DNA from: Pecten maximus
Taxonomy: Eukaryota
Direction: 5' to 3'
DNA length: 64,000 nucleotides
Assembly: GCF_902652985.1 (NCBI RefSeq)
Contig: NC_047024.1
Coordinates: forward strand, 29,450,001 to 29,514,000
Shown in pieces: positions 15,001-18,000 of the stretch (position 1 is the first letter of the stretch; each line of letters starts with the position of its first letter). The position numbers are program-made.

Positions 15001-18000
15001 GACATTATATTTTAAGTTGCATATGTGAATATTTTCAAAATTTTTGAATTTTCCTATTTTTTTTTCTGTCTCCAGATCAGCTATGAGAATATAAAAGCAG
15101 CTTTCTGAAGAAACTTGGAACTGGGAAAAATGGAAAATAATTATATTAACACAACTGATTACCACAGAGACATTTTTATCAGCAGTAACTGACAAATTTA
15201 CCAAAGTAAAGTGTTGGTGAAGTTTCAGTAACTTAATATCAGAACCAGTGAGAAATATAACACTGAAATATCAGTACGTAAGTGGATTATTGGTTTCTGA
15301 AATCACACTACTGTGATCATGAAGAAACCACAAAGAGGCCAAACGACGACCCTTCCCGAAATAATGTTTACTTCATCGAGTCTCCCTACCCGTGTCTACA
15401 TACACACAGGAACCTCCATGGTTACTGCTGGACACTCCAAGGGTAGCAACGATTCGCCCACGTTGGGAGCAGTGCAAGCTGCCAAATCTGACCAAAAGGT
15501 TCAAGAAATGAATGACACTCCAAAAGCCAGAGCGGCTGAAGGTAAAACTGACCAAAAGACTGAACAAGCGGACAAGGAATTCTCTGTCAAGGATGTACAG
15601 AGAGGTAAATCAAAATCACATGGGAACGGTACAAAAGTCGGCCATAAAAAGCAGGTTTCTGACAATGTGGGAGAGATAAGTCCAGATTTAAAGGAAAGTC
15701 TCAAATTGCCACAGCTGCAACAAAGCTCCAGGTCTCCAAGCCTCACAGGTACCCCAAACCTGTCACCTCGGAAATCAACTCCAAGTATTTCCCCCAGACT
15801 GTCAGGAGATAAAGGTATTGATGCTGGTAAAGATCTTTATACACAGGTTTTACAAAAGGCACGGAAATCAAGGTCTCCAGAAAAGAGTCATCCTTTCCCA
15901 GACGTCAAGATAAAGTACCTGGACAAACGAGAGGATACCAAGGATATGATGAAGAATCAAGAGATGATACCCATTCCATTCTCACACATAGACAGGAAGT
16001 AAGTAGGAACCCCATACCCAACATTCCATTCTCACACATAGACAGGAAGTAGGAACCCCATACCCAACATTCCATTCTCACACATAGACAGGAAGTAAGT
16101 AGGAACCCCATACCCAACATTCCATTCTCACACATAGACAGGAAGTAGGAACCCCATACCCAACATTCCATTCTCACACATAGACAGGAAGTAGGAACCC
16201 CATACCCAACATTCCATTCTCACACATAGACAGGAAGTAGGAACCCCATACCCAACATTCCATTCTCACACATAGACAGGAAGTAAGTAGGAACCCCATA
16301 CCCAACATTCCATTCTCACACATAGACAGGAAGTAGGAACCCCATACCCAACATTCCATTCTCACACATAGACAGGAAGTAAGTAGGAACTCCATACCCA
16401 ACATTCCATTCTCACACATAGACAGGAAGTAAGTAGGAACCCCATACCCAACATTCCATTCTCACACATAGACAGGAAGTAGGAACCCCATACCCAACAT
16501 TCCATTCTCACACATAGACAGGAAGTAAGTAGGAACCCCATACCCAACATTCCATTCTCACACATAGACAGGAAGTAGGAACCCCATACCCAACATTCCA
16601 TTCTCACACATAAACAGGAAGTAAGTAGGAACCCCATACCCACCTTGTCAGGTTAGGCCATACAAATTATACCTGCTGTACACATTGCATGATTGTAAAG
16701 GGCAACTACTTTTTTCTTTTCTTTTTCAAATGTATCCCTTGACAGGCTTGGAAGGCTATAAACCTCATTACAAATATAGGTAGCATTTTCAGATGATTCA
16801 CACTCAAAGTTCTATACTAAATTAAAAAAAAATCATGATGAAATATTTACGATTAACTTAACCATGGCCATGACATGAACATTTCCTTTGAATCTTGCAA
16901 AGCACATGATACCCGTTACGTCTTTTATGAAAAACCACCATATATACAGTATATACTGTACTTATCTGATGATAACATAACACTTTTTACTTTCTCACTA
17001 AGCAATGATTCATGTACATCAATATCGGAAGGCTGTTTAAAAATGTTTGTTTTATGTTTCCTTATTTATATAATGAAACCTCAGAAATCAATTTGGCAAA
17101 AACAAATAACTGAAAAAATCAATAATAACTGCAAACAACAAAGCCTTCAAAGGTTTGGGCGATTGATAGGCATTCTACATTCTCATTGTAAACATTTCAT
17201 TGTGAAAAAACAAACAGTGTGAGAAAACATGAGGATCATTAGTTTCTTACACAAACCTTTACAGGAATAAATAAGTATAGTTCAAAACAATTCAGATACC
17301 CGTACCTAATTAATACAGTTTCTTAATATTTTGATCCAGATAATGACAATTCAGAAATAACTTGAGCATTATAAGAAACCTTGTTCTAAAAAGAAATGGA
17401 CTTATATAAAGAAAGTGCCTAATCATTATATCATAGGTCAATAAAATATTAACACAAAGTATGATATAATAAAAATAAATTAAATATATAAAGACGGTTG
17501 ATCAAGCACTTTATGGGACACTTGAAACAGACATGATATATCATTTTAAAGACGATTTCAAATAAGATAGGTATCAAACGTATAAATTGGTTCATAAATG
17601 CGACCCTGCACTGGTAGAGCTGTGTGCATGGTTTGTCTTGTATAACTCGGTGCAATATATAGCTGGTCATATATGGACTGAAACTTGGCAGAATATCTAG
17701 CCCTATTATACATACATATATTACAAAGGTGCGTGTATTGGTTTTTGTGGAGCTTCCCGTTGTAAAACAGTCAGGTAGATAAATAGTCAATACTGATCCA
17801 AGATAAAATATATAGGGTTAACATCATATATATACGACTGTAATATCAACAATTCGCCCAACGATCTTGATATACTCCCGATGGCAAGACTGTGAGAACT
17901 GCACTGGGTAAATATGTATGTGTATTCAAATCTTTTCTGATAAAACAGTCTCTATATTGTTAGTTGTGATACATTATTAAGTTAAAATAATCATAAAATG

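What the first reader, a model, noticed from the sequence alone, without database searches (positions are those of the whole stretch)
15967..16643. Second, independent donor-spanning minisatellite, in the nested gene
Seen: the last ~30 nt of nested exon 1 (PIPFSHIDRK) plus its donor are repeated 14 times. Seven 50-bp-type copies (including the real one) carry GAA|GTAAGT and seven 46-bp copies carry the weaker GAA|GTAGGA. The 4-bp indel between unit types falls exactly in the U1-pairing region. Read-through past the first donor hits TAA at 16000-16002 immediately, giving a 227-aa product. Two unrelated genes on opposite strands within about 30 kb show the same architecture (exon tail plus donor array plus proximal stop), and a 32-bp duplication starts a few nt inside another donor (687-762). 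Inference: exon-intron 5' junctions may be hotspots for tandem amplification in this genome, with only stop-protected arrays tolerated.
Basis: partly seen in the sequence, partly recalled or inferred. Interest (0 to 1): 0.7.

Follow-up and report, generated by a model that had tools for sequence, protein, structure and literature searches.

The report
Splice-donor-spanning minisatellite in a scallop gene
A short stretch covering the end of a scallop gene's first exon and its splice signal has been copied 14 times head to tail into the intron, a kind of repeat already described in lancelets ("mirages") and in several human genes, so it is real but not a new kind of thing.

Summary
Window 15972-16643 holds 14 tandem units, seven of 50 bp (GAA|GTAAGT) and seven of 46 bp (GAA|GTAGGA). 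Unit 1 is the true end of exon 1, plus donor, of king-scallop gene LOC117336289. That gene is nested in a 28-kb intron of KIF21A on the other strand.

KIF21A carries an older array of the same build: an 84-bp unit, 12 copies, 46977-48008.

The architecture is known. It matches the amphioxus "mirages" and the minisatellites of human F7, IFI 6-16, CBS, LMNB2 and PDGF. In F7, experiments showed that only the most upstream donor is used.

- "Stop protection" is background. All 24 donors in the window meet an in-frame stop 4-143 nt into the intron, and 6 of 7 phase-2 donors meet it at +2..+4.
- A donor hotspot is not shown. For two junction-spanning arrays, P runs from 0.018 to 0.30 depending on the null model.
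- Arrays within 35 nt of a junction are somewhat enriched (6 observed against 0.7-2.1 expected).

Splicing behaviour, polymorphism and the orthologous introns could not be checked. I rate it a new member of a known kind, of modest interest.

The parts
15319..15998 (+). Coding exon 1 of LOC117336289 (Pecten maximus), from the ATG to the last exon base. It ends in phase 2 (AA | G).
   Evidence: tblastn of P0001 residues 1-227 at 100% identity. ORF. P0001 sequence.
15972..16643 (+). Minisatellite of 14 units (7 x 50 bp, 7 x 46 bp). Unit 1 is the last 27 nt of exon 1, the authentic donor and 17 further intron nt (23 intron nt in all).
15999..16004 (+). Authentic donor GTAAGT. It matches 7 of 9 positions of MAG|GTRAGT.
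   Evidence: The junction ...HIDRK|VTVVRN is present in P0001-P0003.
16000..16002 (+). In-frame TAA inside the donor hexamer. Read-through gives a 227-aa product.
16049..16626 (+). Thirteen decoy donors. Six are GTAAGT (first G at 16095, 16283, 16379, 16429, 16525, 16621). Seven are the weaker GTAGGA (first G at 16049, 16145, 16191, 16237, 16333, 16479, 16575).
   Evidence: Consensus matches are 7/9 against 5/9, and the local PWM gives 6.4 against 3.7 bits.
15967..15973 (+). ATACCCA in the exon at the left edge of the array. The same 7-mer ends every unit (the last copy is at 16636-16642). It is a candidate microhomology for the founding duplication.
   Evidence: The unit junction carries 3 nt more than a simple slip between the two 7-mers would give.
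16636..16642 (+). Last ATACCCA, at the right edge of the array, followed by unique intron sequence.
18387..19395 (+). Exon 2 of LOC117336289 (acceptor AG at 18385-86; donor AAG|GTAGGT at 19396).
   Evidence: The exon end is corrected to 19395 from the sequence, after the donor 9-mer came out off by one.
22437..22640 (+). Exon 3 of LOC117336289, including the stop codon.
902..29183 (-). The 28-kb KIF21A intron that hosts the nested gene.
   Evidence: Exon map.
47960..48079 (-). KIF21A exon (residues 965-1004 of P0004). Its last ~50 nt and its donor AAG|GTAGGT founded the other array.
46977..48008 (-). 84-bp minisatellite, 12.3 copies, 87% matches. Of its 11 decoy donor positions, 6 are identical to the real 9-mer, 3 have lost GT (including the copy next to the real donor) and 2 are weakened.
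687..762 (-). 32-bp x 2.4 duplication starting at intron position +6 after the donor (GT at 767-766) of KIF21A exon 901-768. It does not include the GT.

Best explanation
This is a young 'mirage'-type minisatellite.

**Origin (inferred).** A ~50-bp segment spanning the exon 1 / intron 1 boundary of the scallop gene LOC117336289 was duplicated in tandem. A 7-bp direct repeat, ATACCCA, may have helped the founding event. Unequal exchange or replication slippage then expanded it to 14 units.

**Layout (shown).** The upstream-most copy is still the working exon end and donor. The other 13 copies lie in the intron as pseudo-exon tails with decoy donors.

**The two unit types (inferred).** The 46-bp type arose from the 50-bp type by loss of one AGTA/GTAA repeat. 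It spread largely as part of a 96-bp dimer.

**Splicing (inferred).** By analogy with the human F7 intron 7 minisatellite, the most upstream donor is chosen by 5'-to-3' oriented selection and the decoys stay silent or nearly so. Any use of a decoy would retain the TAA at 16000-16002. The result would be a truncated 227-aa product or a transcript open to nonsense-mediated decay.

**Function.** The array is most likely neutral or slightly deleterious, and a by-product of a genome region in which a fifth of the DNA is minisatellite.
For: **Array anatomy.** The units are near-identical, with 2 substitutions in 672 nt.

**Unit 1 is the authentic junction.**
- P0001 matches exons 1, 2 and 3 of the window.
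- The join HIDRK|VTVVRN is conserved in Ylistrum balloti and Mizuhopecten yessoensis.
- The flanking region is recognisable in the ark clam Tegillarca granosa.

**Local origin.** The unit has no other copy in the window. Among 50 junction-centred probes, only this donor and the KIF21A donor have junction-spanning copies.

**Founding microhomology.** ATACCCA lies at both edges.

**Ancestral unit type.** The first and last units are both of the 50-bp type, and array edges are reported to escape homogenisation (PMC3087553, section 16).

**Dimer spread.** TRF prefers a 96-bp period (96% against 93% matches). The two unit types alternate more than random: 11 runs, with 266 of 3432 arrangements reaching that number.

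**Background.** 29 arrays cover 20.9% of the window.

**Published precedents.**
- In the F7 IVS7 37-bp VNTR the first unit spans the exon 7 boundary. Only the most upstream of 5-9 identical donors is used, and the pseudo-sites are functional if the upstream ones are destroyed (PMC1557585: abstract, introduction and discussion read).
- Amphioxus mirages do not disturb regular splicing (PMC3087553; PMC3902484, passage).
Against: - No transcript data were available, so use of the first donor rests on a database gene model and protein conservation.
- The F7 rule was shown in mammalian cells, not in molluscs. [quoted passage not shown]
- The repeat junction has 3 nt more than a clean slip between the two ATACCCA copies would give, so the founding mechanism is only suggested.
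- The alternation test is not significant: P = 0.078, or 0.12 with the edge units fixed.
- The published P. maximus assembly (most likely the source of this window) came from PacBio Sequel long reads assembled with wtdbg2 and then polished (PMC7191990, passages). Copy number and the order of 46/50 units may therefore not be exact.
- Arrays lie closer to junctions than uniform placement predicts. A purely neutral, position-blind origin does not predict that.
Confidence: 0.75

Rival explanations
1. In this genome, exon-intron 5' junctions are mutational hotspots for tandem amplification, and only arrays protected by a proximal in-frame stop survive.
For: - Two junction-spanning arrays at 2 of 24 donors and 0 of 24 acceptors.
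- A third duplication starts at +6 of another donor and a fourth at +32.
- Uniform-placement null: donors with an array within 10 nt, 3 observed against 0.12 expected (0 of 2000 simulations reached 3).
- Same null, any junction within 35 nt: 6 observed against 0.74 expected.
- Seed-unit model with the 10 arrays of at least 5 copies: P(>=2 spanning) = 0.018.
Against: - Seed-unit model with all 29 arrays: P = 0.083.
- Own-intron null: 2 spanning observed against 1.11 expected, P = 0.30.
- Two of the six near-junction arrays sit at acceptors.
- All tests are post hoc, on a window picked because the pattern was seen in it.
- The stop clause fails. All 24 of 24 donors have an in-frame stop within 143 nt, and 6 of 7 phase-2 donors have it at +2..+4.
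- In amphioxus both 5' and 3' boundaries are duplicated (PMC3087553, figure 6 legend).
Confidence: 0.15
2. The decoy array is functional. A cluster of U1-binding sites just inside intron 1 would tune the gene's output. It could do so by diverting part of the transcripts into stop-containing isoforms, or by recruiting splicing factors to the nascent RNA.
For: - Six decoys are identical to the real donor over 27 exonic and 23 intronic nt.
- In both arrays the copy next to the real donor is weakened: the 46-bp type here, and GT>AT in KIF21A. That is what selection against use of the proximal decoy would give.
- A donor-rich repeat RNA recruits splicing factors in chicken oocytes (bioRxiv 10.64898/2026.03.19.712899, abstract only).
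Against: - There is no expression or conservation evidence.
- The joint chance of the two weakened proximal copies is about 7/13 x 3/11 = 0.15 (my arithmetic), which is not significant.
- Near-identity of the units points to recent expansion rather than long maintenance.
- The RNA fold of the region is ordinary (z = -0.83; 39 of 200 shuffles fold at least as well).
Confidence: 0.06
3. Assembly artefact. The array, or its copy number and 46/50 pattern, would be produced by long-read assembly and polishing of a shorter repeat.
For: The published P. maximus assembly used PacBio Sequel reads, wtdbg2, Arrow and Illumina polishing. The raw reads showed 1.71% heterozygosity (PMC7191990, passages).
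Against: - The 4-bp difference is the same clean deletion in all seven 46-bp units, and the rest of each unit is error-free. Random indel error would not give that.
- A second, diverged array of the same design lies 31 kb away.
- I could not confirm that the window comes from that assembly, beyond 100% identity to proteins annotated on a 44.8-Mb contig.
Confidence: 0.04

Closest known systems
Human F7 intron 7 37-bp VNTR (Borensztajn et al. 2006, PMC1557585; abstract, introduction and discussion read)
   Same: - It is a minisatellite whose first unit spans the exon-intron boundary.
- The authentic donor is followed by several identical pseudo-donors.
- The array is short (5-9 units in F7, 14 here).
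   Different: - The F7 unit holds only 4 exonic nt, against 27 here.
- F7 has one unit type. This array has two, differing by 4 bp inside the donor.
- F7 splicing was tested experimentally and its polymorphism is documented. Neither could be tested here.
- F7 is mammalian; this is a mollusc.
Amphioxus 'mirages' in Adh3, TnC, the globins BflGb6 and BflGb9, and PGBD5 (PMC3087553, section 16 read; PMC3902484, passage). The original Canestro et al. 2002 paper is not held.
   Same: - They are minisatellite-like tandem duplications of an exon-intron boundary in a highly polymorphic marine invertebrate.
- Units run from tens of bp to 160 bp.
- Several genes are affected.
- Regular splicing is reportedly undisturbed.
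   Different: - Mirages are described at both 5' and 3' boundaries. In this window only donors are spanned.
- Length and somatic instability were shown in amphioxus and are untested here.
- The phylum differs.
Human IFI 6-16 intron 2, CBS intron 13, LAMIN B2 and PDGF intron 4 minisatellites (as listed in the introduction of PMC1557585)
   Same: The first unit spans the exon-intron boundary and the donor is reiterated 10-25 times. The 81-bp and 100-bp units resemble the 84-bp KIF21A array.
   Different: [quoted passage not shown] Here usage is unknown, and the most proximal decoy is weakened in both arrays.
Tandem genomic duplication model of intron gain (Rogers). Reviewed in PMC3443670 (passages). 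Gao and Lynch 2009 is not held.
   Same: Tandem duplication reiterates splice signals inside a gene.
   Different: That model duplicates an exonic AGGT and creates a new intron. Here an existing 2.4-kb intron with unique sequence (16644-18386) merely gained copies of its own 5' edge.

Membership tests
Mirage / boundary-spanning minisatellite (F7 IVS7 type) | Head-to-tail tandem array of a unit of tens of bp | tested here: met
   14 units of 46 or 50 bp.
Mirage / boundary-spanning minisatellite (F7 IVS7 type) | The first (or last) unit contains an authentic exon-intron boundary | tested here: met
   - Unit 1 covers 15972-16021 and the boundary falls at 15998|15999.
- The join is the one in P0001 (100% identity) and is conserved in two other scallops.
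- This rests on a database gene model. I saw no RNA data.
Mirage / boundary-spanning minisatellite (F7 IVS7 type) | The splice-site sequence is reiterated in the intron | tested here: met
   6 identical GAA|GTAAGT copies and 7 GAA|GTAGGA copies.
Mirage / boundary-spanning minisatellite (F7 IVS7 type) | Regular splicing uses the authentic (most upstream) site | not testable with these tools
Mirage / boundary-spanning minisatellite (F7 IVS7 type) | Copy-number polymorphism or instability | not testable with these tools
   Only one haplotype is present. No eukaryotic genome collection is available, since genome contigs holds bacteria and archaea only.
Intron gain by tandem duplication of an exonic AGGT | The intron consists of the duplicated exonic segment, bounded by the two AGGT copies | tested here: not met
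   - The intron 15999-18386 has 1743 nt of non-repeat sequence after the array.
- The units contain no AGGT.
Dispersed, transposon-borne satellite | Copies of the unit occur elsewhere, outside the array | tested here: not met
   blastn-short of a unit dimer against the window finds nothing outside the array better than 16 nt at E = 0.28. This covers the window only. The rest of the genome was not searchable.

The most novel reading that the evidence does not exclude
Exon-intron junctions in scallop genomes, and perhaps in minisatellite-rich marine invertebrates generally, may be preferred birth sites of minisatellites.

- The cause would be a transcription- or splicing-coupled mutational process.
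- The resulting decoy-donor arrays would then be shaped by selection, with the decoy nearest the real donor inactivated first.
- Such arrays would be natural multi-allelic experiments on 5' splice-site choice.
Probability: 0.15. Interest if true: 0.6.

Novelty: new member of a known kind. Interest (0 to 1): 0.3.

Why it matters
- **A natural test of donor choice.** Seven identical strong donors compete for one acceptor. That tests how a spliceosome picks a 5' splice site, so far studied in mammalian cells with F7, in a mollusc.
- **A wider pattern.** Two such arrays in one 64-kb window, in a phylum where my searches found no report, suggest that mirages are not an amphioxus oddity. They may come with minisatellite-rich, highly heterozygous genomes. 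A genome-wide count is easy and would settle whether junctions are truly favoured.
- **Annotation.** These arrays can mislead gene finders and read mappers at the exon edge.

Tried and rejected
- **Pfam.** Exons 1 and 2 match no family at E <= 1. The first attempt failed on a frame error of mine and was corrected.
- **Protein atlas.** P0001 gives only unnamed clusters at 0.77-0.78, below the tool's own chance level. This is no lead.
- **RNA structure hiding the decoys.** The fold of 15940-16120 is ordinary: z = -0.83, and 39 of 200 shuffles fold at least as well.
- **Transposon-borne satellite.** Rejected for the window.
- **Intron gain by duplication.** Rejected, because the intron is mostly unique sequence.
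- **'Stop protection'.** Rejected as background.
- **Unit-order test for dimer amplification.** Suggestive only: P = 0.078, or 0.12 with edges fixed.
- **Literature not held.** Gao and Lynch 2009 and Canestro 2002 are not in the library. One search failed on syntax and was not repeated.
- **Mollusc precedents.**
  - The search for minisatellite + intron + scallop + splice returned 2 papers.
  - The search for mirage + minisatellite + amphioxus returned 2 papers.
  - The search for minisatellite / exon-intron boundary / pseudo-sites returned 10 papers.
  - Judging by titles and abstract openings only, none concerns a mollusc boundary-spanning array. One hit, on an abalone TSSK1-like gene (PMC6905558), holds both 'minisatellite' and 'exon-intron boundary' and was not opened.
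Full report
**What the window is**

The window has no N. Its GC content is 30-46% in 2-kb windows.

I searched the coding parts exon by exon. That step was left out, and full-length comparisons used the database records as returned.

- The ORF at 18388-19395 is 100% identical to a 630-aa 'uncharacterized protein LOC117336289 [Pecten maximus]' (P0001). 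Orthologues exist in Ylistrum balloti (92%) and Mizuhopecten yessoensis (91%).
- The minus-strand exon 48079-47960 is 100% identical to 'kinesin-like protein KIF21A isoform X2 [Pecten maximus]' (P0004, 1734 aa).

The window is therefore king-scallop DNA, not human.

Mapping P0004 back onto the window gives 22 minus-strand coding exons, residues 476-1351. P0001 maps to three plus-strand exons: 15319-15998, 18387-19395 and 22437-22640. These lie inside the 28-kb KIF21A intron between exons 29306-29184 and 901-768, so the gene really is nested.

The nested protein has no Pfam family. Its only named relatives are in bivalves: scallops, oysters and an ark clam.

**The observation**

parses 14 units from 15972 to 16643.

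- Seven units are 50 bp (GGAA|GTAAGTAGG) and seven are 46 bp (GGAA|GTAGG).
- The order is 50,46,50,46,46,46,50,46,50,50,46,50,46,50.
- There are two substitutions in all.
- TRF gives period 46 (14.0 copies) and period 96 (7.0 copies, 96% matches).

Unit 1 is the true exon end. Exon 1 ends at 15998 in phase 2, the donor GTAAGT starts at 15999, and AAG TAA at 15997-16002 ends a 227-aa read-through product. AA plus G at 18387 restores the lysine, and the frame continues as VTVVRN.

The join ...PIPFSH(I/T)DRK|VTVVRN is present in all three scallop proteins. The surrounding region aligns with the ark clam protein.

The 4-bp difference is one copy against two of AGTA/GTAA within intron positions +1 to +8. 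It lowers the match to MAG|GTRAGT from 7 to 5 of 9. On a small matrix built from the other 23 donors of the window, it lowers the score from 6.4 to 3.7 bits.

**The companion cases**

KIF21A exon 48079-47960 ends AAG|GTAGGT. Its last ~50 nt, the donor and ~34 intron nt form an 84-bp unit repeated 12.3 times (46977-48008, 87% matches), so this array is older.

Its 11 decoy positions break down as follows:

| Decoy state | Count |
|---|---|
| Identical to the real 9-mer | 6 |
| Lost the GT, including the copy directly after the real donor | 3 |
| Weakened | 2 |

The 32-bp duplication at 687-762 begins at intron position +6 of the donor of exon 901-768 and does not include the GT.

Of 50 junction-centred 80-nt probes, only these two donors have junction-spanning copies elsewhere in the window.

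**Is the coincidence with donors more than chance?**

I merged the 36 TRF rows into 29 arrays. Rows describing the same array were merged and the poly-G row was dropped. The 29 arrays cover 13,378 nt, or 20.9% of the window. The window holds 24 donors and 24 acceptors.

| Test | Null model | Observed | Expected | P |
|---|---|---|---|---|
| Donor-spanning arrays | Seed-unit, all 29 arrays | 2 | 0.475 | 0.083 |
| Donor-spanning arrays | Seed-unit, 10 arrays of >=5 copies | 2 | 0.204 | 0.018 |
| Junction-spanning arrays (either end) | Each array re-placed in its own intron | 2 | 1.11 | 0.30 |
| Junctions with an array within 35 nt | Uniform placement | 6 (4 donors, 2 acceptors) | 0.74 | none of 2000 simulations reached 6 |
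| Junctions with an array within 35 nt | Own-intron | 6 | 2.14 | 0.010 |
| Junctions with an array within 35 nt | Window-wide seed model | 6 | 1.77 | 0.0096 |

In the seed-unit model, a founding duplication of unit length u spans a given junction with probability u divided by the non-exonic length.

These tests are post hoc, on one window chosen for the pattern. One search used 19396 instead of 19395 for one exon end, which does not change any count.

My reading is that there is a modest hint that repeats sit near junctions. The hint is not specific to donors, and the window gives no proof of a hotspot.

**The stop clause**

For all 24 donors I read on in frame into the intron.

- The first stop ends 4-143 nt in, median 14 nt.
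- Six of the seven phase-2 donors have it at +2..+4, because GT[A/G]A read in that phase is TAA or TGA. That includes four KIF21A donors with no repeat array within 150 nt of them.
- The KIF21A array donor has one of the latest stops, at 90 nt. That stop lies in the degenerate second unit.

'Stop protection' is therefore the background state of introns here, not a property of the arrays.

**How the array most likely arose**

- The unit is local sequence and has no other copy in the window.
- ATACCCA occurs in the exon at 15967-15973 and ends every unit, the last copy at 16636-16642. This fits a founding slip between non-contiguous short repeats. However, the unit junction has 3 nt more than a clean slip would give, so the idea is only suggested.
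- Both edge units are of the 50-bp type. Array edges are reported to escape homogenisation (PMC3087553). I therefore infer that the 50-bp type is ancestral and that the 46-bp type is a 4-bp slippage deletion.
- The preferred 96-bp period and the excess of alternation (11 runs; 266 of 3432 arrangements reach this) fit spread as a dimer, but not significantly.
- Near-identity of the units implies recent expansion or ongoing homogenisation.

**How it most likely works**

No transcript data were available, so this part is inference.

- The database model joins 15998 to 18387.
- In the closest studied case, human F7 intron 7, the pseudo-sites are functional but only the most upstream donor is used. 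This was attributed to 5'-to-3' oriented selection (PMC1557585).
- In both scallop arrays the copy next to the real donor is the weakened kind: the 46-bp type here and GT>AT in KIF21A. The chance of that is about 0.15 by my arithmetic. It is worth testing genome-wide.
- The RNA fold of the region is ordinary.
- Use of any decoy would keep the TAA at 16000-16002. From general knowledge and no call: such a transcript would be expected to be a target of nonsense-mediated decay.

**Comparison with what is known**

Boundary-spanning minisatellites are described in two settings.

- Human genes: F7, IFI 6-16, CBS, LAMIN B2 and PDGF (PMC1557585, introduction).
- Amphioxus, under the name 'mirages': Adh3, TnC, two globins and PGBD5. 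The authors remark that this may be a general phenomenon in cephalochordates (PMC3087553, section 16; PMC3902484, passage).

The three structural features of the class are met here. Splicing behaviour and polymorphism could not be tested.

The tandem-duplication model of intron gain (PMC3443670, passages) does not apply, because the intron is mostly unique sequence.

My searches turned up no report of such arrays in molluscs, judging from titles and abstract openings. One hit, on an abalone gene, was not opened.

A paper I recall only from memory is Zhuo et al. 2007, on introns from tandem arrays. Its title phrase occurs in two papers. I did not see the paper.

**What stayed unchecked**

- Orthologous scallop DNA.
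- RNA-seq and raw reads.
- The supplementary files of PMC3087553 (unit alignments and trees) and of PMC2812944 (Table S3). These might show how often proximal decoys are degraded in other cases.
- Whether the window comes from the PacBio-based assembly of PMC7191990 (passages). This is inferred only from matches to proteins annotated on a 44.8-Mb contig. Copy number and unit order should be confirmed on single reads.

**Verdict**

This is a new member of a known kind, the mirage or F7-type donor-spanning minisatellite, found here in a bivalve and twice within about 31 kb. The hotspot idea remains open and the stop idea is rejected. Interest is 0.3.

Noticed in passing
window 16022-16067 and 47873-47790 (minus strand): In both donor-spanning arrays the copy immediately after the authentic donor is the weakened kind. 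It is the 46-bp GTAGGA unit in the nested gene and GT>AT (AAG|ATAGGT) in KIF21A. The joint chance is about 0.15. This fits published use of the most proximal pseudo-sites in human IFI 6-16 and CBS.
   Followed up: partly
window 57643-57726 and 61098-61245: Two short tandem duplications (42 bp x 2 and 49 bp x 2.9) end 16 and 20 nt upstream of the acceptors of KIF21A exons 57626-57427 and 61077-61040. That is just outside the polypyrimidine tract. They contribute to the excess of repeats near junctions.
   Followed up: partly
window 29109-29151: A 16-bp x 2.7 repeat (unit TACAGGTAGGTACAAG) lies 32 nt downstream of the donor of KIF21A exon 29306-29184.
   Followed up: no
window 1-64000: Tandem repeats cover 20.9% of the window (29 arrays). 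They include arrays of 2.6 kb (49 bp x 53, 39924-42528), 1.9 kb (130-bp unit, 54227-56165) and 1.7 kb (39 bp x 43, 7574-9237). The same 35-bp unit forms two separate arrays (29458-30792 and 31608-31823) in one KIF21A intron.
   Followed up: no
window 37606-37633 versus 43958-43985: A 28-nt stretch spanning the donor of KIF21A exon 37699-37615 has an inverted 86%-identical match in the upstream intron (E = 2.8e-4 for that probe; 50 probes were run). It may be chance.
   Followed up: no
window 35568-35599: A run of 32 G (poly-C on the KIF21A strand) lies about 90 nt upstream of the 21-nt micro-exon 35477-35457.
   Followed up: no
window 18409 onward (M235 of P0001): The listed oyster relatives (P0010 Ostrea edulis and P0011 Crassostrea virginica, 407 aa) start at the methionine that corresponds to M235 in scallop exon 2. 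They lack the whole exon 1-encoded part. The ark clam protein has it.
   Followed up: partly
window 47129-47614 (minus strand): The 84-bp KIF21A unit is 28 codons long and stays open for 161 codons across several units. In-frame insertion through a decoy donor is prevented only by the stop in the degenerate second unit.
   Followed up: partly
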